Assembly (NCBI GenBank): GCA_905178155.1
Contig: CAJINV010000012.1
Location: forward strand, 3,219,144-3,283,143
DNA: 64,000 bases
Source of the DNA: Amoebophrya sp. A120
Taxonomy: Eukaryota; Protista; Dinoflagellata
Direction of reading: 5' to 3'
The notes under the pieces are model-generated. The model made no database searches and was not told the DNA's origin. It worked only from the letters and a program-made list of their open reading frames with translations. The translations under genes and the position numbers were made by a program. Of the stretch, positions 11,597-46,500 are shown piece by piece (within the stretch, counting starts at the first letter, position 1; every line of letters starts with the position of its first letter).

Positions 11597-14500
11597 ATGT
11601 CATCTTCCTCGTCCCGTGGCTCATCTTTTTCGACCACCCGCCGCCCGGACGAATTTGGGCAGCTCCCACCTCCTCCTCACGACAAAACTGCTACCAGCTC
11701 GAAAAGGAGGAGGAACCCTGAAGGAAGTATCACCAAAACTACAAGGAAAAACCGCACCGCGAAGGCTGAAACTGAATCGGGGAAGAACAAGAACTATTCT
11801 CTGCAAAAGTATCGTAGAACTCGTATAAATGCATTACAAATTTTCTCAGCATCAGAACCGGATTTTCATTTTGTCATGCTGTTTTACCTTAAGGACAAGA
11901 TTTGTCATGCATAGTCGCAATTAGTACGAGTACGATACTTTTGCAATGCATAAGAGCGGCACGATTCCAAAGGTCGATGAGCTGGATGAGCTCGCGGAGT
12001 GTGTTATCCTGAGCAAAAACGTCCCCTCCGCAGAGCTGTCATGCATATTTGGAATGACAGGAACACTTGTAATGCGCTTCCCCATGACAGGCATTTCCAG
12101 TGGTGTTTTGGTATTTGTAATGCTGCAAACAGGATAAGCAGATGGAGCTGTGATGCGGTTGTCCTTGCTAACATGCACTACACTACGGACTGCGCCTTGT
12201 CATGCGTGGCTCCCAAAACTTCTGGGTTTGTGTTGCTAAGTTTCCAACTCGACTCGGGGGTGGGGATGTTTTTACTCAGGATATGCGTCGTCGCGGAGTC
12301 CACGGCGCGGGCGAGAGAAGAGGCAACGCTACCAGGAGTGAGCGCTAATAGGCGAGGGTCGGAGGTGGCAGAAGTTGGTGTCGAGACGGTGTTAGACAGT
12401 CATCGTGGCCGTGGGGTAGAGGAGGTTCAGCACCACACGCAAAGACAGCATCAAGCTGCTAACTGTAACTACACTATTCGCGAGATAAGGACATCAAGAA
12501 ATAATAGCGCAACCGCCGAGGAGGAAAGGCGGGGAGAAAATAATACCGAGGAGAGCAACCAGCTAAACTTCTCGGGACATCATCAAGTACTAGAGGTGGA
12601 AGCGCCGTTGACGTCTCCCCGTGAAGACAAAGATGGGAACAACTACTACACCAAGCGTCGGCTCGTTCTTTCTCAGTCGCAGCCACAGGAGGCACTGCAG
12701 GATAATTTCCCGATCCAACGCCCACCTTCGAGGAAGGGAGCACGAGTGCGAACGAGAAAGACTAGCACGGAGTCCTCTTCGTCCTCTACTTGCACAGGGG
12801 TACTAGTACATCAGCCACCGAGGGAACAAGAAGCAGCTGGACCGGAAGCTGGCTGTGAAAATGAAGATGCCAACAACCGGAGCGGCACACGGAGGAGCAA
12901 AATGTCCTGTAGTGAGAACACGTATGACCACAGCGGTGCCAGGTCGTCGTGTCTCTCGACCGGAGTCGGAGAGGGTGGCCGGGGTAGAAGTGATGCGCCT
13001 TTTGAAGAAGAAGAAGAAGAAGATGAAATCCGCCATGGCAGCATGATCCCAACGCTAGCGTTGCCGAGGCTGCTGGTCGGAAATATTGCTTGTGCGACAG
13101 TGTCCACTGCGCTCTGCCAAGAACAAGACGAAAAGAAGGACGAGGAGCAGGTCACTGCTGCCAGCTGCGGTTATGCGGAGCACAGCGTCGTCGAGCCGGG
13201 AACTACAGAGACAACAGGTGCTGGAGCTGCACCCGACAAACAGGGAGCCAAGCCGGAGCCACCACGAGCCCTAAAATCCACTGCAGCGGCACAAGAAGTA
13301 CTTGAAAAAGCGGGAAGTAGGAATATAAAATCTACTCGACGAACCTCGGGAGCAACAGCTAGTGTGGATCCAACTTTGTCTTCACGCGCACGTGGTACGA
13401 GCTCGTCCCGGTTTCCTTCAAACCGAAAGAAGGTCCTGCCGACGACACACCGATCTGTCTCTGCAACGCGTTCTTGCAAAGCAGGGAGTTGTGAACAACA
13501 AGGGGCGAAAGAAGAAAAACAACGCCAAGAAGAACCAGCTGCAGATGAGCAGACGCAGTCAACAACGTCAGACATCAGCGCACCACGACCAGGAGCGCAG
13601 GATAATGCAGAAGCTACACTGGCAATGGCATTGGCAACATCTTCAAAAAATAAAGCTGCAGATGTAGTTGAAGAAGTAGCTGCCCCCAGCACGTCGGTAG
13701 AAGAAGCCCCTGCGAGAGCAGTGGAAAAAAGTCTCAGCGTAAAAACAAACAGAACCGCGAAGATGATGTTGAGCACCAATAGAACGACAGGCACAGGAGC
13801 TGTAGTTCCTCCCTCGCACCAGCCTTCTGGTCCTGTCGCTGCTGGAGGTGTCGTCCCCTCCTGCGAGAAAAATCTCGAAGAGGGTGTTCTTCTGCGGAAA
13901 ACAATAAAAACGCGGATGAAGAACAAAATGACCCAGCAAATGACCAAGCGCGCCGCAGATGAAAAGGTGAAGCAGAACCGGTTTTTTCTCAAAAAGGGCG
14001 AAGGGCGAGTTGTGGAGCAGCAAGCGTCTACTTTGTCCTCGAATGCTGCTGCTGCTGTTGCTGGGCGCCACGACCAGGAAGGAAAGAGCGAAGGAGATCT
14101 TCATGGAAAGAAGGAGGTGCTGTTGAAGAGTTCTTGCGCTGGTAAAGGAAAAACAAATGCACTGTGGGCCAACACAACTGCTTCTTCATCTAAGAACAAA
14201 GATTCCTCGTCCACCTGTGCAGAAAATAATACACGTGGCACAAGAACACAGCGAACTCCTCCTCCTTCGGCGCCAGAAAATGGTCCACCTAACACGTCTT
14301 CTACGAAAGCGCAGGAGCTACTACCAGAAGATCCTTCTCCACCCGCAAATGGTGGTGTAAGAAGTCGCTGTCGAGATGATCAAGAGGACAACAGGAAGAA
14401 CGACCACCAGCAAGATCGTGGCTCCTTAGCCCTGCACCGCCTGTTTGCGTGCTCGGCTGCCGCAGGCGGTGTCGCGAAGAGCTGCAGCAGGGACGATGAA

Positions 14501-17500
14501 GATCTCGGCAGAATTTTTCACCTCATCTCCGCTTTTCTGTTTGGGGCAGGCGCGGCTGGGGGAGGAGCAGGAGCCCAGGGCGAGAAACAAGAAGCGGTGG
14601 ACCTTCATGAGGTAGGTTGTAACAAGAAGTCGCAGATTTTAGAAGAGATGAAAATAGAGCAAGGACCGCAAGAACCAACAAGGGCGTCTCGCCACGATCC
14701 GTCAGAAATAAATGGACACCCGCTTGTTCCTCGCGAAAACAAGTCGAAGCTAACACCCGGACGAGGCGGTTCCACCCGTGGTAAAAAAAGTTCTGCTGAT
14801 CAAGAACACTATCATTCCTGTCCGGCAAGTAGAACCAAATTAGGGGAGAAGATGCTACACCAGAAGCAGATGAAAAGTTGCTACTTACCGCCGGTTATTT
14901 CGACGTCCTCGACTGGTGCAGCGACATCGACTTCGATGGGTGTGGTCTTGCAAGACCAGAGAAGTCGGGCTGCGCCTGCAAGAAAGGTGTTTGCAGATAA
15001 AAAAGCTGCGGATCATGAAGATGTTCGTGACGCGGCAAGAAAAAACGACCGAGCTCTGACATTAAAGCAGACAAAGTCCTCCTCAACTTCTGCGAAGCGT
15101 GCAGTAGCAGAGAAGATGAACAAGCAAAGCGACGTAGTGGATGATCACACACAAAGAACTAAGCAGGAATTAGTAGAAGATGAAGAACATGACCTACAAG
15201 AGCAGGAGCACTCCGTCGGCTTGGTGAAGCAGACGTACGGACCCACACTATTGACCAGCCCACATATCCAAGAAAAAAACGTTGTTAGTGTAAATTTGTG
15301 ATGCGCAATATGCAAAGTGATTGCGTCTGTCATGCTTGGCATGCATCGCAGGGTCCATTACAGGGCGTTTTCACGTACTATCTGCGCATGACAGGTTTCT
15401 GCTGTCATGCCAGACAAATTTGTAATGGTGTTCCTCCAAAAAAGTTACGCCTACAATGTTTTTTTCTTGGATACCACAGCGAGGCCTTCTACTACTGGAG
15501 CAGGGCAGTTCTACTTTGTCCTTCGGCGGACGGTCTCATCTGAGCACCAGGAATAAAAAACACAATCTGGGACTACAAGCGAAGAAGATGGAGAGGGGGA
15601 CAATTACCAGCTGCACGAGGACGAGTGCAACATCATCAACATCTCCGCACAAATCGAAATCCAAAATGCGGGAAGACGAGTCCTCAAATCACAGAAAAGG
15701 CGAAGATAAAAATGGACGACACAATGGAGCAGCGAAAAAGCTCCCTGGTGGAGCGACGGGCAGTGAAAAGGCTTCTGGTCCTGACCAGAAAACTCTCAAT
15801 GCCAGTACTAGCGCGGAGCATCAGACGCAGACCCTACCACAGCGGAATAAAACAGCCAGAATCGACGACGATCTCAAAGCACGAGGAGACGATGAAAAAA
15901 GTGAAAACGATAGCTGCGACAGTGAGGAACAGCAGATGGCGTTCGACCACAGGCAGACAGACAAGGACTATGCGGGCCCGAAGGTGAAAGCGCGGCAACT
16001 GGCGGCGAAAAGCTATTTGTCCGGTTTGAGGAGTCCGGAGAGGGGATGGAGAAGACACGCGAAGGACACACTTGGTTTCTCGTTTTTACAGAACTTTCTG
16101 CAACCCTCGAAGAGCGCGCCAAGTTTGTTGCGCGCTGAGGACGAGCTCCACGCCAGTGATGGGAAACTTACAACGACGGCGCGCGCATTGGAAAAAAACG
16201 AGGGAACTACACGACAAGCAACGATGACCAGAAGAACCCTCTCTGCTCCGCTGAAAAAGGACCGAAACAAAACCACCCGGAGTTCTTGTAATAGTCCCTT
16301 CACAATAAAGAAATCCAAATCGCCTCTGAGACCACACGATCGCCGTGTGCTGCGTGCCAATCAGGAAGATTTCCGGCAACTTCAATACGAACGGTCCTCC
16401 TCGACTGGTTTTTTTTCGCCCGACCAAGCGCTCCTGCGGTACGAGAAAACGGAGTACTTTCACAAGCTGATGCAATTGGAAAAGCACAGGAAGGCGCTTT
16501 TCAGGCAGACTTTCGAGAAACTCGCGAAGCAGCGCGAGCGGACGAAGGCCAAAAAGTTGTTGAAGTTGCGGACCAAGATTTTGAAATTGAAAAACGAGGA
16601 GGTCCGTCGTAAGCAGGAACTTTTTCGCAATCGTATTGTGAGGAAAAATGCCCCCAACCCATAACTTGGGAGCATTTGTATTGCAAACCTTTCTAATGGA
16701 AACATTGGCCGTCTTGCATGTATCAGCATCACAGATTTTCAGTCGTGGATAGCAAAAATTTGCATTGCAAAAGATCCCAGCAAGCGCGGCGCTTGTCATG
16801 CAGGCGATGCTGTATACGACTAGACTCTGCATCAGAAAGATTCATAGTCCTTTCATGCATGGCAAAAAGTTTTCGTTTGGAAACGTCGCATCACAAGTTC
16901 TTGCAACTTTCGGGGTGGGGGCATTGTTCATTGTAATAAATCGCGAATTGGCGTTGCAAATGCGGAAGGCGAAGACGGTGCGGATTCCGTTCAAGAAATA
17001 TCAAAATAAAAAATCCCCCCTCCCCATATCGAAACGAAGTTTCTGATGCTGGATTTGCGTACATAAATCAGGTCTGTCTTGCTGGAGAGGACTGCAGGCA
17101 TATGCCAAGCCTGGGTCGAGAGGTTTTGACGTAGGGAGCTAGCATGACAGGCGTCGGCTCTGTAAGCCCAGCAGCATCACAAACCGCCGGCATAATGCGG
17201 CGGATTCTCTAGCTTTGCCTTCTTGCAAGACAGACAGGATTTGTGACCTCAAATCTGCATCACAAATCTTCAGACGGATGCGTTTTCAATATGGGGAGGG
17301 GGGATTTTTCCTCACAATAAGAAAAAGCAAAGCGTCCGACAGAGGATGAAGATGGTGACTTGTCTCCGGATATCAACTGTAAAAATGTCTGGGTCTGGAA
17401 GGATGCATGTTTGTCATGCTTGTCTTGCATGACTCTTAGATCTGTCATGCACGTTACCCAAGAGCTCCATTTTTCTGTGATGCAGGAACGCACTTTGTCA

Positions 17501-20500
17501 TGCACAATAGGCAACACCTAGAAGCTCAGAAACTTGTCATGCTGAGCCAGCATTTGTGGCCTCATCATGAGACGCCACCCAGCATCACAAGCTTCCAGAC
17601 CCAGACATTTTTACATTTGATACCGGAAAGCCATGTACGGCATGCAGGGGAAATATCGCAAGAAAAAACTGGTGTCTTGGTCTCAAGCTCAACTTGTAAA
17701 AATGCGGGACATTTTGTTGTTCCTTAAGACAGTTTTTTACCATGCTGGACGAGATACATCTTTCAGAATGGGTTTATTTCTCTTGCTGTCTGCACGCATC
17801 AGACATTTTTTGTAGTTTCTTGTTTCGCCACAACTTTGTATTTACTGAGGTCCCCAATGGAAACGCTACCGGTAAGAACGCTTGAGACTGAGATAGTGTT
17901 TTCGTACGATACGAAAAGAAGAAACAGCAGTGAGGAAGATAATCATGTCGAGAGGACATCTTCAAGCAGTGCGAATAAGCTTCCAACCTCCACAACGATG
18001 AGAACAAAGACGAGTAGCGGTGGAGCAAAGGACGCTGAGGATACGGACGACGAGGACGAGGAGGAAAATGATGTATGAATTGCAAAAGTATCGTACTCGT
18101 AGTGATTGCGTTTATGCATTACAAATCTGTTTGTCAAGAAGGTAAAAAGCAGCAGTACAAATTTAACTTGTACTGCCGGGCTAATTTGATGTGATGCAAT
18201 GTATACTAGTACGATACTCGTGCATTGCATATGATGAGCCTCCTGGCAAAAGCAGCAGCTCTACCGGGAAGATCCTTGGAAATTCAGCCGCAGCTGCGAA
18301 CAAAGGTGGAGGCACGATGATCCGTCCCAGCGTCTTGTTTAACATAAAAACAACATCATCCTCATCTTCCGAAGCAGCGACGGGCTGCATTATAAATCCC
18401 ACCTCCGGGGGCAGCGGCACAACGTCCTCCACATTGTTAACGCTTCCGAATTCATCTAGTACTTCTAACAAATTGCCGCGGCCGCGCGGATCCGCCGTGC
18501 TAAACCCGAATATTCCGCACTCTGCCCGGGCGTCCTTCATCCGGGGACCACCTTCCGGGAGTGCGCGCCCATCTGTTGCGCACGTTCTAAATGGGCCGCG
18601 AGGGTCCATGGCGGTCACAGCTTCCAGCAGCTTTCACGGTGGCACGGCCAGTGGAATGAATAGAGGAGGAGGTGCTGGTTGTACCACCGGTTCGGGCGGT
18701 GAGTTGAACGGCAACAAGCATGACAACAGCAGCACGGCGAAAATACAATCCTCCTCGTCTGGTAGTAGCAAGCTTTCTTCTAGTACCTCTGCAGGCGGAG
18801 CAGGTGGAGTAACTTCATCACCTCCGAAGCAGCGCAACACGAAGCTCGCCATGCTCGAGCGCACGACCAGTTCGGGGAATCTGCTGGAGGACCAAGAGTC
18901 GCTGCAGTCGGTTTTGCAGTTTCTGGAACAGGAGTGGCGGTCGCTGTTGCAAGAAGTGTTTATCCGCTACAGCTTCAAGGATTGGCGCGACCGGTATGAA
19001 TTGCAAATATGTCTGAGTCTGGAAACTTGTGATGCTGAGTCGTGAATAGTGAATGCGCTGTAATGCACAGCCAAGCATGAGAAATATTTGCGTGGTCTAG
19101 TGTTGCGTTTTTTACTTGACAGCTGTGTTTTTGCATGACAAGCAAAAGGCTCTCTGCTTGGACACGCATCACAGACCCTTCAGTCATGCCAGACAAGCAT
19201 GAGAGCCTTGCATTCTTCCAGACTAGGCTTATTTGCAATGCATAATCGCCGGGTGATTACGAAGTTGCTGCTCGATTGCGGCGTGTTCCCCTTGAACATC
19301 AAAAAGCCCGGGTTCAAAGTTGGTATCCATTGCAACGACCGATCTGAATCTGGAAGTGTGCAACTTGCGATGCTGCTGGTGAATTCTGAAAAAAAAACTG
19401 TATTGCCAAAGTAACCAGAAAAGCCGAGTGGATGCTCTTGCTACGCGGAGAGGGCACTCATGATCCTGCCCGATAGGCATCCTCACGCACTCAGAAAGAC
19501 TGTGATCATGCAACCAGGGCATAGTACATCACAGACCCATGATCATGGGTCCAAGCGTAAAACGAACATGACAAGCGTTGCACTTTCCTAGGTCCAAGAA
19601 TCATATTTGGTTTCGATACCTGGGACTTGTGGTGGTATTTCATCTGAAGACGGCGGGATTTTTGCAAGCCACAGCAGTAGTTCTTCTTCCAACTACGACA
19701 TTGAGCACGCCGGGGTGCAACAGCTGAAGGTGCAAATCATGAGCTATTTTTTTGGCCAGAATTTTTCCAACAACAGCGAAATCGTGGAGCGAGCGGCCAG
19801 TGCGCCAGGTGCAGCAGCTGCGTGTTTGCATCAAGCAGCCAATACGTCGTTTTTCACCCACCGTTCCTGCAACAACAGGATGGGATTTGGAAATAAAAAC
19901 GGCCCCGCCCCCTTCACAACCCCTACAGTAGTGAACTACAACACACCCCCTGGCAGCCCCCGCGGGAAAGAGCCGCTTGGGTTCCGGAGCACGGTCTTGT
20001 CGCTCGCATTGCACGACGAGGACTCGTCAGCACAGCAGAGAAGCTCGGAGTACAATTTTTGCGACTCAACAAGTAGAACCTCCAGACGGAGTACAGTGAA
20101 TTACAATTCTGGCTCATCTTCAAGGAGTTGTATTCCCCCTAGCGGGGCTGGAACAGGAACAGCAACAAACGCAGGAATCACCGCTCCAGGGAGCTGCAGC
20201 AGGGCGAGCGGGAACAGTGGTTTTGTGGAACCTCCGCGGCAGGGAGTAGTTGAATCATCAACGACGTTGTCGGCAAATGGTGTAGTAACCAAATCCGGCG
20301 GTTCCGGTTCCCCCACCCGCACAGCGTCAGACCAAGAGAAATCCGCCTGTGGTGGAGCGAGCGGGACTTTTTTACCCCCGTCCAGTAGTTCCTCGTTCCC
20401 CGCTGGAACCACGACCTCGAGTTCTAATCCCGGAGTTTATTCTGCTGGCACTGCATCGACCGGTGTAAAGTCATTGAACCTACCGGCTGTTGTAGTAGCG

Positions 20501-23500
20501 CCAGCAGGAGTTTCATCAACAACAAACGGCACTGAGTCCACCTCAACGTCAACATCAACCGGCGCAGCTAGTAGTGCAGCTGCTTCTCCACCTGCCGTCG
20601 ATGCCTCCTCGTCCACCCCGGCAAGCTACAAGAACGGGACCCGCGCGTCACGCACCGTCATCCTGTATATGCAATGGAAATTGAGTTCTATCCAATTCCG
20701 CCAGTGTGTACGTACAAGATGCATCACAAATTATTCGATCATTCAACCTAAGTCTTTACGTGTAACACTTGTCATGCTGATCTTAGGATCGGAGGCAAGT
20801 TTTGTTATGCAGAGTCCGCGTCTGTAGTTTTGCATTTGCCTTTATTGCAGGAATCGGGACGAATTTTCTCTGTTGTATACTTTCCGGCGTCATTCAACAG
20901 CACGCTCCGGAGCGCAACTCCGCTTCCGGCAGATTAGCCGACGTACTGGAGCAGCCCCCGGGGGGCGGTATCCTTTGTAAAAACGTCCACACACCAGAGT
21001 CAAGATGGGAAATCTGCTATACAAATCTCCAAGTTTATTTGGGCGTTGTGCATGACAAGTTTCCATCTGCAGCGTAGTGCTGGTTAGCAAGGGCAGCCGC
21101 ATGAGAAAGCCAGCTTCTCATCCTGTCTACAGCATTACAAAGTCCAAAGCACGATTGGAAATGCCCCTGATGGAGATGCGCATTACAAATGTTCCTGTCA
21201 TTGTGCATTTCCATTACAACTATGGGGTTGGAACTTTTTTCCACAGGATAGGCGGCCGCAGTGCCGGTTTATCCTCCAGCAGTGCGAATGCGAACAACGG
21301 TATCCAGGAAAAAAAACACCATCACAATCACACGTAGGAGGTTTCGCATCAGAAATTTGTCTCGCATGACCACAGATTTTTCTTGTATTGCAAAAACGCA
21401 AAGGGAAATCGCCTATAGCCCTTGACTGTGATGCATTTTTGCGCATGACAAAAATCTTTGTATTGCAAAAATGTGCAAAAGTGATTGTGATGGTGTTTTT
21501 TTCTTGAATAAACGGCGCCCGCCGCCCGTCCAGCATCTACAATCGCAACAGCAGGAGGAGCACGAATGTGAACGTGTTTGTGAACCTGGGCATTGTGAAT
21601 CTCTCCCCTATATGCATTGCAGATATGGTGCCTGGTAGGTCTGGCAGGCTGCAACTTGTAATGCTGCCTTCGTCGGATTCTAAATAAATGTGTGTTGCAT
21701 GAGGGGTCCAATTTTTGCTATGCGGAGAGGGCACTTGTTTCTCATGCGGGAGCAGCATCACGGGCAAAAAGGCCTCAAAAAGCATGTGTGAAACTACGGC
21801 ATACAACATCACAGACAACATGGGCCATGCAAAACGTGCATGACAAACGTTGCAGTTTTCCCGACCACCCAGGCAGTTTTTGCATTGGATACCCCAGCGG
21901 GAAGCCGGATTTCGACACGTTTGCGCGCGTGATGCAGGAGATCCGGGACCTAATTCTGACGTTTCAAAAAGAAGTTTTGTCGGAGTCCCTCATGGAATGC
22001 ATGATTGAGTCCGAGCACTGGCGGGATTTCGACAAAATGGTGCAGACCGGCAGTGATGTCAGTCTGTTTCTTGCGGAATCGGTGATGCGCGGGGGTGCAG
22101 GAAGTGGAAGGAACAATGGTGGCTACAACTTTGTGGATGATAATCCCAATTCTAGTACTGTGTATGGCACCACCAGCTCTTGGGCTGCTGCTGGTGTTCT
22201 TCCGGCGCGCAGAAATTCCGCCAGCGGGGAAGATAATTCCTCGGGCAATAAGTACCAGATCGCAGCGCATTTGGCAAACTTGTTCGGTTGCAAACTGTCC
22301 GGAATTTCCAGACCGTTTCTGCAGAATAAAGTGATCAAGAAAACGCCCAACAGTTGTCTTGGTGGACCGGCAGGAGGAGACCAGCAGTTGGTCTCCAATT
22401 CTAGCTGTACTAATCATCCGGAACAAGACAATTATCCCCGCGGAGCCGCGCCGGATGTAGCCGCTGTTGCAGCAACTACTGCGGAAAATAACAAGCAGGG
22501 TGTAGTTGTAAACCCCACCAACAACAAATTGGACAACTTTTGGCACACTTTGAAGAGAAAAGCTGGCAACCTTTTCGGCGTGACAGGACCGACAGGATCG
22601 TCTTCTGCGGGAGCTTCGTCCGCGGCAGGTGCACCTCCGCACGGCGGCTCTGGTGCAGCACTCCCTCCTTCCGCTGCGGCAAGAGGCGCCAGTGCAGCAG
22701 CTGGTGGACAGCACCAACTCTTCCAAGGTTCGGCCACCGCCACTGCCATGGAGAACCTGCAAAACAAGATGGCCATCGGGTTCAATATCAATCACACGAC
22801 AACGACTCGATCGGTGGAGCAGCTGTCGCATTTTGTTTACCACTCCCGGGTCGATTGCTTGTGCAAGTTGCTCCCGAAAATTTTCGAGGCGGCCGGCGTG
22901 GAGCGGCACTACCACACGAGGGAAGTCATCAAAGATTTCTTCGAGGCAAATTACTTCCAGAACCCGAGCTCCGTGTTTTCATCTACCGTGGGCGGCTTGA
23001 TGTTTGGCACAAAGCACGGGTCGTCGACGTCGGGCAGTAAACCAAGCTATGCGATTGTACTGCAAATATCTTCTCTGGTTCAGAATTTGCGTTGCAAAAT
23101 TTTAAAGACATCTACCTACATCTGTGCAGCATGGCTACGAGCAGTCGACAACTCTTTTGTCGTGCTGGGGATCTAGTTTGTCACGCGGTTTTCGAATGAA
23201 TCCGCTAGCACGGAACTGAAAACCTTCTGATGCTGTTACTTATGCCGCAGATGGTGATAGTACTCTGCTATGGGAGTATGATCAGCAGCAGGAATACAAC
23301 AGGTGTACAGACTCAGACATGTTTGCTATGCATACTTCCAGCAGTAGTGGTGCGGATTCCGGTGCAGTGGGTGCCGGCGAAATTCCGAATGGGAATCACC
23401 ATCACGACGGTAGTTCTCATTTCAACGGCCTGGTAGCGGGTGGCAGTTCAGCATCTGGAACAAACAGTAAGTCCCAGCACGCAGCGGGCGGATCAGGCCA

Positions 23501-35500: not shown

Positions 35501-36616
35501 ACCTCCGTAGCAAATCTTCACTCGGGCAAAATGTTAGCCAGTTCCATTACGAATAAACATACTGCCGGAATTTATTCAGGACTACCACAACTTTCCACCT
35601 CAACCTCCGCCTCTTCAGGAGCGCCGGCGAGTAGTAGTAATCCCGTATTAGCGGCGAGAAGGGACTTTCTGCAGGCCCGGTCGGCGTTTATTCACCAGCT
35701 GATTACCCTCAACAGGTACGAAAATTCTTACACTGGTTCTTTCGCCCTACTTCATCCTGGGGGAGTGGTCTCCGACCTGGAACCTTGGCCCGATCTACAC
35801 GGCCATCAGGGTCGTGGGGCAGGAGATCACCACTTCTCCTCTTACCACCACCATCACCACCACCACCACCATCATACCCCTTTTAACTACAAAACGGCTT
35901 CAGCAAATTGTAGTGAAGTACTGCTTTCCGCGAACGAAGTGGAGACCACAATGGAGCTAGCGGGAGTCGTGTATGCACTATGAGCATTTCTTCGCTCTGG
36001 GTAGTCTATTGGAAAAATATCAATATTCGATAGAAGTGCAGCACACTTGTTATGATGCAGTCAGTCTGTCACCCACAGCAGCTTCTAAGCAGAAGACGCT
36101 GGCGGTGCCTACGTTGCACTAGTGCAACTGCAGCAGCAGCAGCTCGTCTTACATGGCAGGTTCGGGCGCTGCAATAAGATTGAGAAGTCTGGTGCAACAT
36201 CAAAATAAAGTAAAGTACTTCACCCAATTAGATACTGTACTGACATGTTGTCAATCTAGCCAGGACACTGTGCTGCATTTTTCCAAACCTTCTGGTGGAG
36301 GTGGAATTACACGAAAAGCTGTAGAACTTTGCACTCTGTCTAGTCATGACGACCCAGACCGATATTTGCACAGCATTTCGGCGTGTCACAAAACATTGGA
36401 ACTGATGGTAGTGGAGCGGAGAAAATAAAAAACCGGCCGCGCATTTCCGCCATGGCAGCTGCTGGGGGAGTTGCAAATAGACCTGGTTGCAGAGTAAAAG
36501 ACGCGACTGCTACCGGTGGCAATGATAGTTCGCAATTTTATTTCCGATCAGATGAAGATATCCCTTTTGAAATGAACTTGTACCGTTTTCTCGACCTCGT
36601 TTCCCAAAAATTGTAA
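11597..36616 (+). CDS. Giant low-complexity/coiled-coil protein (~4,365 aa), 31 introns (29 TIR-type, 2 GT-AG); function unknown
   Basis: Frame continuity checked by hand at each junction; summed exon length 13,098 nt is divisible by 3; ends FEMNLYRFLDLVSQKL*. Confidence 0.7.
11795..11952. mobile_element. TIR introner (family C)
   Basis: TGCAAAAGTATCGTA TIR core; DR AGAAC/AGAGC. Confidence 0.88.
12005..12283. mobile_element. TIR introner (family B, reverse orientation)
   Basis: DR TGTGT/TGCGT; reverse complement of 23977-24255. Confidence 0.92.
15265..15473. mobile_element. TIR introner (family D)
   Basis: TATCCAAGAAAAAAAC TIR; DR CCACA. Confidence 0.93.
16634..16938. mobile_element. TIR introner (family F)
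   Basis: DR AATCG; reverse complement of 26928-27265. Confidence 0.9.
16999..17319. mobile_element. TIR introner (family E)
   Basis: AAAAATCCCCCCTCCCCATAT TIR core; DR AGAAA. Confidence 0.92.
17371..17622. mobile_element. TIR introner (family A)
   Basis: DR CCGGA. Confidence 0.94.
17654..17911. mobile_element. Degenerate TIR introner
   Basis: TATCGCAAGAAAA...TTTTCGTACGATA; DR GGAAA/CGAAA; frame restored. Confidence 0.75.
18074..18231. mobile_element. TIR introner (family C)
   Basis: DR TGATG; frame restored. Confidence 0.9.
18995..19244. mobile_element. TIR introner (family A)
   Basis: DR ACCGG/ATCGC; frame restored. Confidence 0.88.
19324..19618. mobile_element. Degenerate TIR introner
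   Basis: TATCC...CGATA; DR GTTGG/CCTGG; frame restored. Confidence 0.75.
20666..20879. mobile_element. TIR introner (family H, 3-nt DR)
   Basis: TATATGCA...TGTTGTATA; DR CTG/CTT; frame needs element+3 nt. Confidence 0.7.
20969..21250. mobile_element. TIR introner (family B)
   Basis: DR GGCGG; same length (282 bp) as and similar to 165-446. Confidence 0.92.
21301..21510. mobile_element. TIR introner (family D-like)
   Basis: AAAAAAACACCATCACAATCAC inverted at both ends; DR AACGG. Confidence 0.93.
21611..21891. mobile_element. TIR introner (family A-like)
   Basis: DR CCCTA/CCCCA; frame restored. Confidence 0.85.
23048..23334. mobile_element. Degenerate TIR introner
   Basis: TATGCG...ATGCATA; flanks CAAGC/CTTCC; frame restored with +5. 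Confidence 0.7.
23977..24255. mobile_element. TIR introner (family B)
   Basis: DR GCAGT. Confidence 0.92.
25812..25990 (+). other. Canonical GT-AG intron
   Basis: GTATAAGT...CGCAG; joins ORF 24260 to the frame of ORF 26065. Confidence 0.65.
26411..26670. mobile_element. TIR introner (family A)
   Basis: DR GCATT/GCAGT; close relative of 17371-17622. Confidence 0.93.
26928..27265. mobile_element. TIR introner (family F)
   Basis: TATTACAGTGAAAA...TTTTCATTGTAATA; DR GGAGC/AGAGC; internal 24-bp duplication. Confidence 0.92.
27318..27528 (+). other. Canonical GT-AG intron
   Basis: GAG|GTACTT...pyrimidine tract...CTCAG|GTC; frame restored. Confidence 0.75.
27594..27849. mobile_element. TIR introner (family G)
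   Basis: TIR contains tandem CTCAAACGTTACA twice; DR GTGCG. Confidence 0.92.
28035..28297. mobile_element. TIR introner (family A)
   Basis: DR CAGAG; close relative of 3701-3949. Confidence 0.94.
28357..28678. mobile_element. TIR introner (family E, reverse of 16999)
   Basis: DR CCGGG/TCAGG; frame restored. Confidence 0.9.
28824..28969. mobile_element. TIR introner (family C)
   Basis: DR GGAAG/GGATG. Confidence 0.9.
29041..29368. mobile_element. TIR introner (family D-like)
   Basis: TATCCTGAGAAAAAAACTGT...ACAGTTTTTTCGTGGGATA; DR AACGC. Confidence 0.9.
29686..29903. mobile_element. TIR introner (family H, reverse of 20666)
   Basis: Right end degenerate; element+3 nt restores frame. Confidence 0.6.
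30292..30557. mobile_element. TIR introner (family A, reverse of 28035)
   Basis: DR GCCCT. Confidence 0.94.
30782..33754 (+). CDS. Reverse-transcriptase-like polyprotein, N-terminally truncated (990 aa)
   Basis: VQYVDD at 31154-31171, then GQFLAPLKCE and LKILGI (RT subdomains 5-7 pattern); RNase H-like RDGAS..GVGIVG region; charged C-terminus; no introns. Confidence 0.75.
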   Translation: MLGGTLMFLPGVEIVAEFLEEVFDEEGRTNRERLQKAEAKLRTRIARLYKGGDIDTSFRDYDHRTEVDEIYQKEAGPPVTGYRRGEKVTTGQGKEKKGEKARKTEFRYYMGNLPHDNKRKWTLAVQYVDDGTIVLKFFVEDIEVVAAALKAASWAYQKIYETEGQFLAPLKCEFATSLKDPAKISILRQAFQPFGIMFEEKDFLKILGIRIVPTNKEGQRKALRSQVQQSIGIGQHLAYQVMSRRKKLEGEELVWIIQVFFVSSMIYFLPVMQLYFDMQDWATMLGEISLTIAETIGMTEETVEELMRKTNTNAETFYRVVFGAKMLGITDPITLGLKTLRATAQANYLTDPGGFIQMATMPLKVVGESKAGIARAVERKIMKRKEADIALLQALRDGASVRLSAGSDLRGVGIVGKTNKAKPQMVQSQHVYRCDRSLLADKIRTGGKGKKGQSDYMTKIWVKHTKKEEATMVTVEEWKGKEEHMATIETRQDHLKTEVRTEERKFVAYCNNAIRAIEMVKKQQHEGSGGVCVCLLDYDEMKEKTRGLLRKEQGIALELQEEIEKAEKQIPGLTIVRRWGKQNAPKTLEKRETQGGYTEAIPLKVANVSKHDDEYAEWVQYDFGEKNVPTKPIWEWPEMSKIERQVYTYRKIIGDEKKDGKKAEEGGGDGEDDRRKDSTGERKGKEASSSAKEKARCGKDPKGNTATTDTSREIVSGSLAETIRKMVEGEKIRAQKEGNEMLQRALDIIGRATDLLETAEDVPLESRATSSSSNRRDMPEITEERKESKEEEENEIEEDVYFSPAQEYQGSRSGYVYKLGRFGMGYYKDQGPEEATREMFQKITIGGPGGKLPKREISKEQKTAKKEVTGDATRQEKNTQQVRKVAEEEEEIEMTSREAEEPGGEGRSGSLRKKTAKDISETVREKEDEKEEERFPTLEELNERDRKRDREEAAEREEERKRQEERRSMKRPKYDNALQEELAQMFRNTH
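34499..34568 (+). repeat. 35-bp perfect tandem duplication in the retroelement 3' UTR
   Basis: GGTATTGGCAGAGGCTAAATCTGTTCTAACGCCAC x2. Confidence 0.95.
34872..35156. mobile_element. TIR introner (family A)
   Basis: DR GCCGG. Confidence 0.92.
35248..35390. mobile_element. TIR introner (family C)
   Basis: DR GTACT. Confidence 0.92.
35972..36377. mobile_element. Degenerate TIR introner
   Basis: Right end GACCCAGACCGATATTTGCA; DR TCGTG/TCGGC; frame restored. Confidence 0.65.
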
Positions 36617-38144: not shown

Positions 38145-41100
38145 ATGCCACCTCCTCCTCCGCCACGACCGCCATCTCAGGGCGGCGCAGCAGACACGAC
38201 CAGCAGCGAAAAAAATAGTAGAAGTAAAGAGCCTACAATTCGTGACGTTGTCCTCGCGAAAAACGAGAATTCGCAGGCGAGGCAGCAGTACATGATGTTC
38301 GACCTCGCGAAACCAATTGGATGGAAGAGCGGCAGCGCGTCCGGGCTCGTGCAGCGGCGCCAGGAGGAGAACTACTACGGAGGTCCACCTCGCACAAGTA
38401 CCTCTGCACGCGGACCACCAGCAGCATTCCCCCCGGGGGAAGCTGCCTATCCAAGAAAAAAGCATTGTAGGTGTAACTTTTTTGGAGGAACAGCATTACA
38501 AATCTGTCTGGCATGGCAGCAGAAACCTGTCATGCGCAGATAGTACGTGAAAACGCCCTTTCATGCACCCTACAATGCATGCCAAGCATGACAGACGCAA
38601 TCACCTTGCATGTTCATGCATCACAAATTTGCACTAACAACGTTTTTTTCTTGGATACTGCCCCCTTGTTCTTCACTCTCCCGGACTCGGCGGGGTGCAT
38701 CACGCGCACGTGTAAGGTATCCTGTGCAAAAGTATTGCACTCGTATTGCAATCATGCATTACAAGTTTTCTTCTTAAGGTAAATCCGCATTACAAATTTT
38801 GCTTCTCTTCATGCTGAGGAAATTTGTAATGCATTTATACGAGTACGATTACGATACCTTTGCAATGCATATAAGGACCCTAACTGCAACAATAAGTACC
38901 TGGCCGGGACGCCGGTCGAGTTTGCGGGTCGGTTCTGTCTATCAACTGTAAAAATGTCTGGGTCTGGAAGATTCTGACACTTGTCATGCACGTTTTGCAT
39001 GAGCAATGATGTCCGTGATGCATACCCTAGCAATACAGACTTTTTGAGGGCTTCTTGATGCCTATTCCGCATGACAAATGCCTTCTCAGCGTAGCAAAAG
39101 TTGCGCTCCCTTTGCTACTCATGCAATACAGATTTTTTTGGAATCCAAATGCAGCATCACAAGTTGCTTTCTTCCAGACCCAGACATTTTTGCATTTGAT
39201 TCTGTCGCAGCTTGCACGACGGCTTTCAGTACTGTGAGCTCCACATCGCGCAAGACGAGAAGTTCGCGAGAATCCAGTGCCAGGGCATCAAAAAGTACAA
39301 CAGCGAAAGGTGCAAGATCCACCGGTATTCTAGCATTCGAATGGGGAACGACGGCAACGGCGAGCTGGCCGCCAAACCGTTGCTGGAGGGGCGAAGTAAC
39401 TTCTGCTTGTTTCACCAGCCGAAGGGCTTTGATTTGTCGTACTGCAAACGCGAGCAAGTGCAGGGCATTGACCAATGGCCCTGGGTGTTTTTTGACCTGG
39501 AAACCGGTCGGCTCGTGTCGGAGTCCAGCGGGGACAGAGTATCAAAAAGAAAAATCCCCCCTTTCCGTATCAAAGTGGAAATTTGTGATGCTGATTTGTC
39601 GTCACAAATCGCCCTTGTCTTGCCTATAGGGCAATAGGAGCTGCCTTGTGGCGCATTCTATACAGCCAGTCTGTCATGCGCTTTCGACTACTGCAAACCT
39701 GTTTGCCATGCCTAATTGCAGCTAGCCTTCTGCATATCCGAGCAGGCAGCTCAGAAAATACCGCCAAGCGTTTTCTGCAAGACAAATCTGATTTGTGGGC
39801 GCCAATGAGCACTACAAATTTCCATTTTGATATGGGGAGGGGGGATTTTTCCTCACAATACAAAGACCGCGTCGACGTGAGCCTGGAGCGGGTCACCGAA
39901 ATCGGCGCGGTAGTGGTGAGAAATCCTGCGGAGGAGCTTCTACTATCACGCACGTCGAGGTCGCCAGCTCATGATGCGCACGGATTGGCTGCTGGCCACC
40001 CCCGCGGCCCGGATTGTTCGATATCATCTCTACCAGGAGGAGATGAGATTTTTGAAAATGAAAACTCATCCGCCCCCGCACGGTATGACGAGAGAAGCTC
40101 CGGGTTATTGTCCTCAAGCGCGGGTGGAAGAACTCATCACAGTCGAGGACCATACGAGCGCCCGCTACATTATGCATTGCAAATCTGTCCGGGTCTGGAA
40201 ATCTGTGATGCCAAAAAGCGGATGATGGAGACACTTTCGAATGCAGCCACGCATGACAACTTTCCAGAACGCTTATTTCTCATGCGCGGCCCGCATGAGA
40301 AACTGTGTTTCTTTTTCGTATGACAAAAGAGGCTGTGACTTTTGCTGGTCATGCAATACAGACCGCACAGGAATGTAAGCCCAGCATTGCAAGTTCGGAC
40401 TTTCCAGACCTAGACATTTCTGGAGTCGATATCCATTTCGAGACCTTGGTTCGGCCCAACCCGACCGAACCGATTGTGACGCCAAACGTCTCGGGGATCG
40501 AAAACGAAATGCTACAAACTGCCCCGGATTTCAAAACCGCGATGAGGAGTTTCTTGCAGTTTCTCGAGAGCTGTTGTCAGCAGCACTGCGAAGCAGGCGA
40601 TGTTGTAGGTGAAGCAGGCAGGAGGAGCACAAGTTCGACTAAAGATGCAACCACGACTGGCACGACAAGTAGAAGTAGACCCCTTCTGATCGCGCACAAC
40701 GGGTTGAATTTTGACGTGCAGGTGCTCTTTCACGAGCTTGTGCGGCACGGGATGGCGCGCGAGCTGGAAAAATTTCGGACCTTCCTTTTCCTCGACTCGC
40801 GGGTATCAAATGTAAAAATGTCTGGGTCTGGAAACTTGTGATGCTGGGTAGCGTCTCATGATGAGGCCACAAATGCTGGCTCAGCATGACAAGTTTCTGA
40901 GTTTCTAGGTGTTGCCTATTCTGCATGACAAACTACGTTTCATCACAGAAAAGTGAAGCTCTTGGGTAACGTGCATGACAGATTTAAGAGTCATGCCAGA
41001 CAGGCATGATTTTTCCAGACCCAGACATTTTTGCACTTGATAGCGGGATGTTGTGGACAATTTTCGCCCGGATTTCGAGTGCAGGAAGCTGGGGTGCTTG

Positions 41101-41553
41101 GGGTTGCAATTGAAGATTGACCGGAGAGACTACGTGGTGCCGACGGGAGAGGGAAATATTAACCACACTGCGCCGAGAACGGGTACTGGCGAGGTGCAGT
41201 TGATGCCAAAAAATAACGCCAGGAACAAAAGATCTGACTCCTTGCCAGAAATATTAAATCAGGGCCAAGGTGATATAGCGTCGTGCGCAGCTCCTACGCA
41301 ACAAGCGTCGAGCAATGTGAGCGAGGTCAGCATTGCCTCGACGGCCAGCGAGCACTGGGCCCGGCCGCACAGAGCGCTGTCGGATTCGTTTCTGTTGCGT
41401 GACGTCGTGTTGAAATCGATAGCGACGTGCTCGAAGCACAGGGCGCTGGCCGAAGGCTTGACGGTGCAGAAGGTCTTCGCAAATAACGCGCGATGCTGGA
41501 GTACGCACTGCAAACATGCCACCGCAGGAGCGACCCCCAAATTTGTCGTTTAG
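38145..41553 (+). CDS. DEDDh 3'-5' exonuclease (DnaQ/TREX/DPD1-like) with Cys/His-rich N-terminal region; 6 introners
   Basis: ExoI VFFDLETG, TEIGAV, ExoII IAHNGLNFD, FLDS and ExoIII HRALSD are reconstituted across introners. Confidence 0.9.
38448..38657. mobile_element. TIR introner (family D, reverse of 15265)
   Basis: DR CTGCC. Confidence 0.93.
38718..38871. mobile_element. TIR introner (family C)
   Basis: DR TAAGG. Confidence 0.92.
38940..39201. mobile_element. TIR introner (family A)
   Basis: DR CTGTC; right end GATT. Confidence 0.92.
39540..39860. mobile_element. TIR introner (family E)
   Basis: DR CAGAG/CAAAG. Confidence 0.9.
40171..40431. mobile_element. TIR introner (family A)
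   Basis: DR TACAT/TCCAT. Confidence 0.88.
40804..41042. mobile_element. TIR introner (family A, reverse of 17371/26411)
   Basis: DR GCGGG. Confidence 0.94.
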
Positions 41554-42182
41554 AATACAAATGAATGATATATAATCTAGAGACGACGAGGCGCGCGCGA
41601 TCATGCATTGTGCTGCGCAAGACAAATACAGTCCAAAAGATTTTTGTATTGACTTCTTGCCTGCGGCTGCTCAGTTGGAGTTGCATAGAGGTAACTGCGT
41701 TTACAATTACAAAACATCAAGTCTGTGTGTTGCCGATGCCGATGTAATCACATTTTATGTGCATAAAAAGAGATGGGCAAAAAACAAGATGAAGCCTTGC
41801 GCTGGCATGTTTGTATTCCATAGGCAGTGGGGTGAAAACTGAGCCGCATTCGCCTGTCGCACGAAAGCGGACGGCGCCAGAGGCGGAAGAGGGGCCGAGC
41901 GAACTCGTCTTGACGGGGGGATGGAAGGACAAGCAACAGAAAACGGAGAAGAGAAGCGATAGTGGTGGAGCTGGCGGCCCTCCACCCGGACGATTTTTCT
42001 CTACTGGACAACGGGGGACATTGCTACAAGGAGCTCCGCGTGGTGGAGGTGGTTAGAATCTGTGAGTAATTATCTTTTTCAGCGATTGACATGATAAAGC
42101 ATCGGATCTAACTCCTATGTGTATTTTCATAAACCCCTCGTAATGGATAAGGAGCTGCTGGTCACGTACCATTTTGCTTACC

Positions 42183-42316
42183 TCAACCCCTGTGGCTCGC
42201 TTTGCGGTGCAGCTGCGGGGAGTAGTTCTTACATCATTACTACTTATTTTGCTCACCCCATCTATCAACCCCTGTGGCTCGCTTTGCGGTGCAGCCACGG
42301 GGAGTAGTTCTTACAT
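42183..42316 (+). repeat. Intergenic 52-bp direct repeat, each copy a GC hairpin
   Basis: TCAACCCCTGTGGCTCGCTTTGCGGTGCAGC..CGGGGAGTAGTTCTTACAT at 42183 and 42265. Confidence 0.85.
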
Positions 42317-43492: not shown

Positions 43493-43561
43493 AAATGAAC
43501 ATGGACTACACTTTCATGGTAAAGTAAATTGATATTCTTGGCAATATTTCAAAAAGAAATC

Positions 43562-46500
43562 ATGCCGGATGTTTGTGCCTGCAGCGTCTATTCCATCCTG
43601 TGCCTGTTGGAATTCCGTGGTAACGGGAAAAAACCCTCCGAGCAGCCGGAAAAACAGCCTCCTATCCTCGAGGCGCAACCGTTCTACAGCAAGCGAACCC
43701 AGTTGAAAATCTTTTGCCTGATCAAGCAACTTTCGGAGGAGCTACAAGGGAGTAGTAGTTCCAGCCAAACGCACAGCGCGTGTCACGCACGGGTTTTTCT
43801 GCAACACCAGATCCGAAGCGTGAGTGAGAATTTGTACGCCGCTATCTGCCAATTCGTCGAGCGCGACTGCGTGCACACCGGCCCCGATGCGGTGTTCGCG
43901 GTCATGCACGAGGCGAAGCAGAGCCTGATGAATCCCCTGCAGAACCACGGGATTTTTGACACCGCGCACCTGACCAACACGAGCTACTACAGTGAACAGA
44001 GCATCATTGGATGCTTTTTGCGCCGGGTCATGCTGAGCTTTCAAAAATCGTCCTTTGAATCCATCATGGTCCTGCATGAGGAGCTGCTCGCCGGGTGCGG
44101 GATCACTAGTACCACGACGTCGAGAGTAGAAGACCCGTTGCATCAAGCCTTTCACGTGCCTCAAGATGCTCAAGAACAACAGGCGGATAGAAGTTGCAAG
44201 TCGAGCCGGAACAAGAAAATGGGACCAAAAATTCCGGTTTGTACGACTGTCACGGAGATGGAGGCCGTCGCTGTCCGATTGTTGCAGGAGCTGGAAGCCG
44301 TGTCTGGTCGTGCTGTGGGCCATCTAGTTGTACGGCAAAAGGACTGCGGGGGCGGAGCGCACCGGCACCGGCACCGGCACGGAGTAGAACACCAAGTTGT
44401 GCAACAAAACGACGTATGCATTGCAAATATGTCTGGGTCTGGAAGAGTCGGGGTTTGTCATGCACATTTTGCATGACCCGTGAGGTCTGTGATGCAGGTC
44501 CTAGCATCACAGATTTTTCGAGAGCTTCTTGATGCTTACCACGCATGACAAATGCCCTCTCCGCGTGCCAAGGACTGGAGTCCGCTTGCTGCCCATGCAA
44601 CACAGATATTTTTAGAATCCGCAAACAGCATTACAGTTTCCACTCTTCCAGACCCAGACATAGTTGCAATGCATACGACGACGACCACTCTGCGGAAGAT
44701 GAGTATCAAATGTAAAAATGTCTGGGTCTGGAAGGATGGAACTTGTCATGCTAAATCTGAAGCATGCAAAAATCTGTGTTGCATGATTACCAAAAGTCGT
44801 CCACTTTTGACCAAGTCGGGAGGGAGTTTCTCATGCAGGATAGGCATGAGAGAGATGGCGCAGAATCTGTCATGCTAGGTCCTGCATTCCAGGCTTCATG
44901 AGTCATGAAAAAGCTGCATGACAAATCGCGCATTCTTCCAGACCCAGACATTTTTACAGTTGATAATGAGGACGCCCGTACAACAAGAACCAAAACGCTG
45001 CACCGTCCTCAACTAGAAGAAGACCAAAATATTATTAAATTCACCGATTTGGCGCAACACACCCTGCAGCACTTCATCAAAAAGGTTCCCAACAACTACA
45101 AATTGTGGTTTTTGCTCTATGAGTTTTACATCCTGAAACAGCAAGTGGAAGTGATGTGGAACACGACGATCACGTCGGGGGCCCCCGCTGCGGGGGAGGG
45201 ACAACGTCATTACGATGTTGTACCGAGCGACTTATTTCTGGCTCACGGGAACGGGGGACCAACGGCACGATCTGTGGAAGTCGGCGGTGAAGTCGTGCGA
45301 GGACATGATATCTTCGCGGGACAAGAGTTGTTCGTGGATCTGGATGCCGGAGCAGTAGGTGCACGCCCAGCTTCTCCCACAAGTACTAGGCCAGCTCGAG
45401 CACGCCCGCACTACAGTCAGCAGGCCGTGGAGGCGCTGCAAAATTTTCATGCCGCGGTGTGCGTGAACTTGCACGAGAACAATTCGCAAAGCCGGTCTCT
45501 CTTCTATTCCCCCCTCACCCACCAGCAGATTCAGCAAGCGACCATCCCGGATATTTTGCTTGCGGTCGCGGGCACGTACTACGCCGCGGGCGAAATTGGA
45601 CCAGCCGAGCGGTTTTGTCAGGAGGCAAACAAGGCCGCACAGGATACGGCTGTCTCAAACATTTGATGCATGATTTGCTGTTTACATGCTGAATTTGTGA
45701 TGCAAGATTACGTAGTGAAAGCGGGCGAGGGCTTGCGCGTCTGGCATCTCTTGCTTCGCACGGAAGATTCTAATCCTACTTAGCGCATCCGCGTCGAGAA
45801 CTTGTCATGCGAAGAGGCTTGATCGCGTGGAGGGTGGCAGCGATTTCGCGACAAAACATCTTCACGCAACGTCAGCGATCAATGAAGCGTCAACTCCGTT
45901 TGAAAACGCCATACAGGAGACCAGCAACGGTTTTTGCTTGACTCGGTGCCTGTACCAGAGCGGTCTGGTCGAAGTTCAGAAGGGGAACGTTCTCAAGGCG
46001 TTGTCGCAACTGCGGTCCTGCGCCGAGAAGGCGGAAATTCTTCGGATGAACGATTTGACGGCGCTGTGTTTCTCCGCAATGCATCGGGTGACCGCACAAC
46101 ACCCGGGCGCGGTTTCGCAGGTAGCGGAACTCTTACCGTTTGCCGTCAAGCAGGGCGCACAAGAGAACCCGGAGGGAAGCCTGCTTCTGCCGTCCCAAAA
46201 CGTGTCGAACAAGCCGCCGCACTTGCGACAGCCGTTCGGCAGCAGTTCTTGTGCTATCTCCGGTGCAAGCTTGTCGCGCTCGTACGAAAGATACTATTAT
46301 TGCAATACCGCATGGCAAATTTTGTACCTAAGTCAGCATCCATTTTTACAATTTAGATTTCATCAATCTGGAGCAATTTTTTGCATAATGCAATTTGAAT
46401 AGATACTGATACAAGTGCGATACTTTTGCAATGCATATGCGCGGCGTTGCGCGTGCATTTGGATGCGGCAGAACAGGCAATGTTACGGACTCGAAGTTCC

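What the first reader, a model, noticed from the sequence alone, without database searches (positions are those of the whole stretch)
12005..44965. The same introner families work in both orientations
Seen: reverse-complement pairs sit in + strand genes: 15265/38448, 12005/23977, 16634/26928, 16999/28357, 17371/40804, 28035/30292, 2511/44704, 20666/29686. Inference: removal does not rely on a polarized donor, branch point or acceptor. The signal is the symmetric TIR structure, as expected for stem recognition by an endonuclease/ligase or a transposase-derived factor.
Basis: partly seen in the sequence, partly recalled or inferred. Interest (0 to 1): 0.8.

Follow-up and report, generated by a model that had tools for sequence, protein, structure and literature searches.

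The report
Reversible mobile introns, lopsided fixed cut
In the marine parasite Amoebophrya A120, small transposon copies already known as "introners" sit in genes facing either way and are missing exactly from likely-RNA contigs and published gene models without GT-AG borders, likely because their mirror-image ends give a modified spliceosome the same start and end signals in both directions.

Summary
Seven of the eight reverse-complement pairs are real; 20666/29686 is not. The window is Amoebrophrya-type: two published A120 proteins match it at 100%, and the elements are the TAT-N7-AAA introners of Farhat 2021. Each has a 5-bp target duplication, and removing element plus one copy restores + strand frames (3,420 aa over 16 elements). 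Families sit about 50:50 in both orientations (78 minority copies of 195; 81 expected). Likely-RNA contigs skip 8 elements exactly, a DNA-like run reads through them, and published models remove copies of both orientations, including one swollen to 4.1 kb. Only 21 of 301 could be GY-AG. Inverted ends present the same 5' and 3' sequence either way, so polarised signals are not excluded. Damaged duplications point to a cut set by transcript direction: one base before, four after. Both-orientation introners are known in spliceosomal systems (Polarella). Best guess: a relaxed spliceosome (0.5); rival: a Euglena-like dedicated enzyme (0.35). No lariat, circle or efficiency data. The scan found this before on other pieces of this genome.

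The parts
2511..2771 (.). Introner, family 1 (pair with 44704); duplication CGATT
   Evidence: inside + ORF 1-5103
12005..12283 (.). Introner, family 5 (reverse of 23977 and 20969)
   Evidence: inside the 3,420-aa + ORF
15265..15473 (.). Introner, family 4 (93% reverse complement of 38448)
16634..16938 (.). Introner, family 9 (reverse of 26928)
16999..17319 (.). Introner, family 6 (reverse of 28357)
17371..17622 (.). Introner, family 2 (reverse of 40804)
20668..20879 (.). Older introner with damaged duplication (CTGTA/CTTTC); not a partner of 29686; gives the only direct upper bound on the cut register
   Evidence: (record 3 ends at 20666)
23048..23334 (.). Degenerate introner missed by the motif scan; its removal joins two ORFs into 3,420 aa
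   Evidence: (record 4 starts at 23339)
23977..24255 (.). Introner, family 5 (reverse of 12005)
26411..26670 (.). Introner, family 2, reverse of 40804 (interior score 268 vs 27); removed exactly in published model P0005; likely-RNA piece stops at its duplication
26928..27265 (.). Introner, family 9 (reverse of 16634); removed exactly in P0005
28035..28297 (.). Introner, family 1, 91% reverse complement of 30292 in the same gene; removed exactly in P0005
28357..28678 (.). Introner, family 6 (reverse of 16999); removed exactly in P0005
29041..29368 (.). Introner; joint 29034>29368 (333 = element + 5) in a likely-RNA contig
29686..29952 (.). Introner with a 3' end reading CATT; removed exactly in P0005; not a partner of 20668
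30292..30557 (.). Introner, family 1 (reverse of 28035); removed exactly in P0005
30597..34718 (.). Family-1 introner holding a ~3.9-kb insert (ORF 30764-33754, AAC-repeat tail; LINE-like by inspection); duplication AAATG; removed exactly in P0005
38112..42053 (+). Host gene (exonuclease-like, 713-aa spliced frame) whose 7 introners are all skipped exactly in likely-RNA contigs
38448..38657 (.). Introner, family 4 (reverse of 15265); joint 38442>38658
40171..40431 (.). Introner, family 2, opposite orientation to 26411; joint 40167>40434 keeps the upstream duplication copy
40804..41042 (.). Introner, family 2 (reverse of 17371 and 26411); joint 40798>41043
44704..44965 (.). Introner, family 1 (reverse of 2511 and of its neighbour 44415)
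11516..25891 (+). Stop-free frame of 3,420 codons after exact removal of 16 introners; families 2 and 5 occur in both orientations
25463..36613 (+). Host gene of published A120 protein P0005 (1,089 aa): 11 introners removed exactly, family 1 in both orientations
58550..63091 (+). PROPPIN/ATG18-type gene (published A120 protein P0001): 7 introners removed exactly, family 2 in both orientations (59203, 61117)

Best explanation
These are Amoebophrya A120 introners, inverted-repeat transposon copies with a 5-base target duplication that sit in exons in either orientation and are likely cut from the pre-mRNA by a modified spliceosome reading their mirror-image ends. Shown: both orientations occur at about equal frequency; exactly the element plus one duplication copy is missing from likely-RNA contigs and published models; no GT-AG is needed. 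Inferred: the cut falls one base before and four bases after the element, so every intron reads N-UAU...UUU-N7-AUA-NNNN. Inferred: the invariant U and A at +2/+3 would serve as a donor with a relaxed first base. Inferred: the U tract and a conserved A at -7 or -5 would serve as branch region, with the 3' cut set by distance rather than by AG. End-to-end pairing would bring the sites together and stand in for the U1 snRNA that Farhat et al. did not find. Because both ends lie in the inverted repeat, reversing the element changes none of these signals.
For: Orientation balance: 9 of 11 families in both orientations, 78 minority copies of 195 against 81.4 +/- 4.2 expected; no family differs from 50:50 (lowest p 0.096). 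Exact skipping: 7 joints in X1 and X2 (one sample), 3 of them also in X10; the exon pieces add up to the full 2,579-nt contig; one more joint. X1 also skips a GT-AG intron (27316>27529), so it is processed RNA. DNA-like X3 reads through element 41502. Published models remove 18 of 19 elements exactly; the 19th lies inside a GT-AG intron. Register: all 8 damaged duplications with RNA information fit keeping 4 upstream bases; P0005/P0001 add 28824 and 62493 (4 or 5). Family-2 copies of opposite orientation (26411, 40171) both keep the upstream copy, which excludes a rule tied to the element. All nine top A120 non-canonical motifs in Farhat Table S4 are NT-NN. Under that rule +2 is T in 300 of 301, +3 is A in 300, and -7/-6/-5 are A/T/A in 296/299/293. 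Farhat report U2, U4, U5 and U6 and most spliceosome proteins in A120, with U1 undetected.
Against: No selection towards spliceosomal dinucleotides: G at +1 in 73 of 228 against 72 expected, AG at the 3' end in 26 against 19. The invariant TAT and AAA are equally explained by transposase recognition. The two ends show no significant difference in conservation (lowest p 0.12 of 16 positions; 99 of 108 TAT at each end). Euglena non-conventional introns have a similarly lopsided code (N3-CDG...CHG-N5-6) and leave as circles (review). The upper bound on the register rests directly on one clipped contig (20668); the other data allow 4 or 5. RNA evidence is assembled contigs of one study, typed 'RNA?' by the tool. 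A shown joint for each member of one close reverse-complement pair was not obtained: 40804 has a joint, while its reverse 26411 has a piece end and a gene model. No lariat or branch-point data.
Confidence: 0.5

Rival explanations
1. A dedicated non-spliceosomal endonuclease/ligase recognises the paired ends, or the TAT-N7-AAA motif on them, and cuts at fixed offsets, as proposed for Euglena non-conventional introns.
For: No trace of GT/AG preference. The inner stem (positions 11-13) is predicted paired (P>0.5) in 87% of 301 elements, and similarly in both orientations. Many repeat positions pair more often than within-family permutations. The Euglena code is also offset unequally from its paired core. 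U1 was not detected in A120.
Against: The terminal triplets are predicted unpaired in 3 of 8 joint-verified elements, and positions 4 and 7 pair in only 164 and 146 of 301, no better than permuted. The extra pairing may be shared ancestry. N-UAU and a U tract followed by a fixed A fit spliceosome logic without a new enzyme. Fritillaria's transposon-derived non-canonical introns are attributed to a modified spliceosome (review). No candidate enzyme was sought or found.
Confidence: 0.35
2. The elements are removed from DNA (transposase-type or programmed excision, or empty alleles), and the joined contigs reflect element-free DNA.
For: Element plus exactly one duplication copy is what precise excision would restore. 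The run type of X1/X2/X10 is only a guess.
Against: X1 also lacks a GT-AG intron. The 2,579-nt contig stops at gene ends where X3 runs on. X3 contigs read through the elements and show none of the 7 joints. All 8 informative damaged duplications fit keeping the copy upstream in transcript direction (rough chance 0.003 under a uniform register).
Confidence: 0.04
3. One orientation is spliced much less well and survives only through weak selection, so the families do not truly work both ways.
For: Efficiency was not measured: the raw-read runs covered no exon. Families 2 and 4 lean 29:18 and 13:5.
Against: Neither lean is significant, and the pooled balance matches 50:50. Published models remove both orientations inside single genes, one of them a conserved PROPPIN.
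Confidence: 0.08

Closest known systems
Introner elements (IEs) of Amoebophrya sp. A120 (Farhat et al. 2021, PMC7789003; seen: abstract, sections 10, 11, 12, 16, 36, passages, supplement legends and Table S4 rows; figures not held)
   Same: Same organism by two 100% protein matches. Same end motif (TAT, seven bases, at least AAA), short direct repeats, ~240-nt length, non-canonical NT-NN borders.
   Different: In the text I saw the paper does not count IE orientation relative to the host gene ('orientation' hits concern genes). It gives direct repeats as 3-5 nt and splice sites as variable. Here the duplication is strictly 5 bp, and one transcript-polarised 1+4 register fits all informative cases.
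Both-orientation introners of Polarella glacialis and Aureococcus anophagefferens (bioRxiv 10.1101/2020.10.14.339549; seen: passages)
   Same: Elements with a target duplication that create introns in either orientation.
   Different: Those use GT/GC/GA-AG sites taken from the element or the duplication, need particular target sequences and are biased to one orientation. The A120 elements need no such dinucleotide and show no significant bias.
Non-conventional introns of Euglena (PMC12501133, passages; review PMC11282704, section 6)
   Same: No GT-AG, paired inverted ends, direct repeats at the junctions, MITE origin proposed, cut sites at fixed unequal offsets from a paired core.
   Different: Different motif (CDG/CHG, offsets 3 and 5-6, purine at exon start). 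Circular excised introns are shown there and untested here. Unrelated lineage.
Non-canonical introns of Fritillaria borealis (review PMC11282704, section 6; original not read)
   Same: Transposon-derived introns with inverted ends and target duplication, attributed to a modified U2 spliceosome.
   Different: Those have dominant AG-AC/AG-AT borders; here only the second base (T) is fixed.

Membership tests
Amoebophrya A120 introner elements | Inverted repeat starting TAT, seven variable bases, then at least AAA | tested here: met
   TAT at 287-300 of 301 per position and A at positions 11-13 in 286-293 of 301, both ends; motif text
Amoebophrya A120 introner elements | 3-5 nt direct repeat at the exon/intron boundary | tested here: met
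   5-bp repeat perfect in 28 of 57 (0 at 3, 4, 6-9 bp) and in 266 of 375 chosen without using it
Amoebophrya A120 introner elements | Multi-copy families, absent from transcripts, non-canonical borders | tested here: met
   13 families; 8 joints; GY-AG possible in 21 of 301
Amoebophrya A120 introner elements | Host is strain A120 | tested here: met
   P0001 and P0005, named A120 by their source, match window exons at 100%
U2-type spliceosomal intron | GT/GC donor and AG acceptor | tested here: not met
   10 of 301 are GT-AG in the 1+4 register; no enrichment over codon-matched expectation
U2-type spliceosomal intron | Branch adenosine and lariat intermediate | not testable with these tools
   Candidate A at -7 and -5 is conserved, but it is also part of the transposon end; no raw reads of this strain were served
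Euglenid non-conventional intron | 5'-N3CDG...CHGN5-6|R signature | tested here: not met
   Ends read N-TAT...ATA-NNNN; the first base of the downstream exon is not restricted to purines
Euglenid non-conventional intron | Ends joined by base pairing | tested here: inconclusive
   Predicted for most elements; terminal triplets unpaired in 3 of 8 joint-verified ones
Euglenid non-conventional intron | Excision as a full-length circle | not testable with these tools
   needs raw or enriched RNA reads
MITE (non-autonomous TIR DNA transposon) | Short, non-coding, inverted ends, fixed-length target duplication, random orientation | tested here: met
   median 262 nt
MITE (non-autonomous TIR DNA transposon) | Cognate autonomous transposase with the same ends | not tested
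   no genome held; no match of the family end in viral contigs; no transposase search was run

The most novel reading that the evidence does not exclude
Amoebophrya A120 runs a splicing pathway that needs no GT, no AG and no interior signal. It reads only the transposon's own mirror-image ends and cuts one base before and four after, exactly undoing any 5-bp-duplicating insertion of 130 bp to over 4 kb in either orientation. If a non-spliceosomal enzyme does this, it is a new eukaryotic mRNA-splicing machine that makes a whole transposon superfamily harmless in exons.
Probability: 0.3. Interest if true: 0.85.

Novelty: already known. Interest (0 to 1): 0.42.

Why it matters
How Amoebophrya removes tens of thousands of introns without GT-AG borders is an open question (Farhat 2021). 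The elements are published. What this adds is a narrow cis code. Orientation does not matter, the interior apparently does not matter (one copy carries 3.9 kb of foreign DNA), and one transcript-polarised register fits. That gives a sharp test: lariats at the 3' ATA against circles or 2',3'-cyclic ends. It also corrects a tempting inference: with inverted ends, working both ways does not by itself argue against the spliceosome.

Tried and rejected
No whole genome was held, so wider counts rest on 148 loci (about 600 kb with overlaps) of one public assembly, JACKZZ01, picked by a family-1/2 end pattern. Its strain identity with the window was not established, and host strands there are inferred from spliced ORFs (172 of 396 unique elements assigned strictly). 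No RNA holder was listed. Raw-read runs X7-X9 matched only element fragments with foreign flanks, so efficiency per orientation was not measured. 12 and 157 joint rows were not shown. Splicing over the 4.1-kb element is seen only in model P0005; contig lengths are compatible but show no joint. My 879-aa frame over 12 elements is in the wrong frame for its first three elements according to P0005 and is not counted for them. Reading frames cannot separate removal of 5 from 2 flank bases; a 'GTAT...TAG, +3 nt' spliceosomal reading was rejected by the joints (all element+5) and (no other net length fits). Codon likelihood gave no signal on which duplication copy is exonic. An apparent G excess at +1 (mirror test p 0.005) vanished after codon-position control. 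A hint of 5'/3' asymmetry in terminal bases was not significant. 29041 and 38448 fall in one cluster in opposite orientation, but their direct alignment is at background, so they are not used as a spliced pair. Searches for a published protein of the 3,420-aa gene found none. Viral contigs held no exact end motif. Literature: six searches and the passages read found no count of IE orientation in Amoebophrya. Figures, the 2023 journal version of the Polarella paper, Huff 2016, Henriet 2019 and subscription papers were not seen.
Full report
Observation. All cited coordinates except 20666 mark the first base of an element that begins TAT and ends ATA. With the symmetric ends trimmed off, seven pairs align only as reverse complements (interior scores 221-305 against 18-40 forward; whole-element identity 78-93%). 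The eighth pair, 20668/29686, is at background (27 against 18). I curated 59 elements in the window.

Identity. An exon of a PROPPIN/ATG18-type gene (Pfam E 3.8e-12) matches a published Amoebophrya sp. A120 protein at 100% and an A25 protein at 86%. A second exon matches another A120 protein at 100%. Farhat et al. 2021 (PMC7789003) describe A120 introners whose inverted repeats start TAT, then seven bases, then at least AAA. The elements are therefore a published system.

Anatomy. Each element is flanked by a 5-bp duplication. It is perfect in 28 of 57 window elements paired without using it, and 0 of 57 at 3, 4 or 6-9 bp. In 148 loci of the public assembly JACKZZ01 it is perfect in 266 of 375. 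Removing the element plus five bases opens + strand frames of 3,420 aa over 16 elements, 1,378 over 4 and 713 over 7. Removing 0, 3, 4 or 6 bases leaves at most 1,040 aa. In the other loci, 36 of 337 junctions lie in frames of 800 aa or more, against 3 and 7 for the wrong offsets.

Orientation. Interiors cluster into 13 families, with fully consistent orientation edges in the nine largest (for example 3,804 of 3,804). Among copies with a strictly assigned host strand, 9 of 11 families occur both ways, and the minority orientation holds 78 of 195 copies against 81.4 +/- 4.2 expected at 50:50. No family departs significantly. Five of six window genes and 14 of 44 other loci carry one family in both orientations on one host strand.

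Removal. Contigs of X1 and X2 (one sample) cover 37831-42212 with all seven elements skipped by exactly element+5; X10 repeats three joints. The exon pieces add up to the whole 2,579-nt contig. X1 also skips 29041 and a GT-AG intron, which marks it as processed RNA. DNA-like X3 reads through element 41502 and into others and shows none of these joints. The published models remove 11 of 12 (P0005) and 7 of 7 (P0001) elements exactly. These include 28035 and its 91% reverse complement 30292, the opposite family-2 copies 59203 and 61117, and the 4.1-kb element 30597-34718. The exception, 27612, lies inside a GT-AG intron. At 59552 and 59792 the A25 orthologue is collinear across the junction. Gene models are predictions and not independent of RNA alignment. 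For the close pair 40804/26411, one member has a shown joint; the other has a contig piece ending at its duplication and the model.

Signals. In any exact register only 3 of 58 window elements and 21 of 301 pooled elements could be GY-AG. After codon-position control there is no excess of G at +1 (73 against 72 of 228) or of terminal AG (26 against 19). The 5' and 3' repeats have the same composition.

Where the inference fails. First, symmetry of the ends means the sense strand always starts TAT-N7-AAA and ends TTT-N7-ATA, so a polarised machine sees the same substrate either way. Polarella and Aureococcus introners work in both orientations with spliceosomal sites. Second, the cut is itself polarised. 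In eight elements with damaged duplications and RNA information, the upstream copy is kept at positions 1-4. The compatible registers intersect only at 'four upstream bases kept', although the upper bound rests on one clipped contig (20668). Models add two cases of 4 or 5. Opposite family-2 copies 26411 and 40171 both keep the upstream copy, which a rule tied to the element would not allow. Farhat Table S4 lists nine leading A120 motifs, all NT-NN, the same register. I took the 1+4 idea from earlier scan notes and then tested it. Third, terminal TAT/ATA pairing is predicted near zero in 38718, 40171 and 41502, all cleanly skipped, although the inner stem is predicted in 87% of 301 elements.

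Mechanism. Under the 1+4 rule every intron reads N-U-A-U at its start (U 300, A 300 of 301). At its end a U tract at -19 to -15 is followed by A-U-A at -7 to -5 and four free bases. This fits a donor with a relaxed first base and a branch A at a fixed distance from the 3' cut. That some protists set the acceptor by distance from the branch point is recalled, not checked. A120 keeps U2, U4, U5, U6 and most spliceosome proteins, and U1 was not found. I put a modified spliceosome at 0.5. A dedicated endonuclease/ligase as proposed for Euglena, whose code is also offset unequally and whose introns leave as circles, gets 0.35, because nothing here selects for G at either border. DNA-level excision gets 0.04 and poor splicing of one orientation 0.08. 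The steps up to exact removal in both orientations are shown or supported by models; the register is strongly suggested; the enzyme is inferred.

Novelty. The elements, their repeats and their odd borders are published, and both-orientation introners are known elsewhere. I found no count of orientation for the Amoebophrya elements in six searches and the passages read; figures and several original papers were not seen. The scan has reported the same property on other pieces of this genome, which is not independent evidence. Verdict: a real and tidy property of a known system that sharpens an open question; interest 0.42.

Noticed in passing
window 30597-34718: A family-1 introner holds a ~3.9-kb sense-strand insert with a 996-codon ORF (30764-33754; a YVDD motif near its start), an AAC-repeat tail near 34589-34606 and a short flanking duplication. 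It looks like a 5'-truncated LINE by inspection; Pfam gave no hit and the fetched loci hold no copy. Published model P0005 splices over it exactly.
   Followed up: partly
window 27612-27831: An element with shifted ends (TAC, six bases, AAA) lies inside a GT-AG intron of P0005 rather than in an exon. It is one case that fits the idea that the exact end motif is needed only for exonic copies.
   Followed up: partly
window 27317: An X1 contig that skips the GT-AG intron 27318-27528 has C in place of the last exon base G (table 5c): possible G-to-C editing or an allele; one contig, depth 7.
   Followed up: no
window and loci L001-L148: Junctions fall between codons in 107 of 228 cases (p 7e-5). 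The duplication is then centred on a codon, so target-site preference may explain it.
   Followed up: partly
window 8540-10089: Three tandem 625-bp units, each an exon plus an introner: an exon duplicated together with its introner. The duplication copies there match at only 2 of 5 bases.
   Followed up: no
window 23048-23334: A degenerate element with extra bases in its 5' repeat and almost no predicted end pairing still appears to be removed in frame.
   Followed up: partly
element ends, all families: TAY...RTA ends recall the IS3EU transposon superfamily (recalled, 6-bp duplication there; not tested).
   Followed up: no
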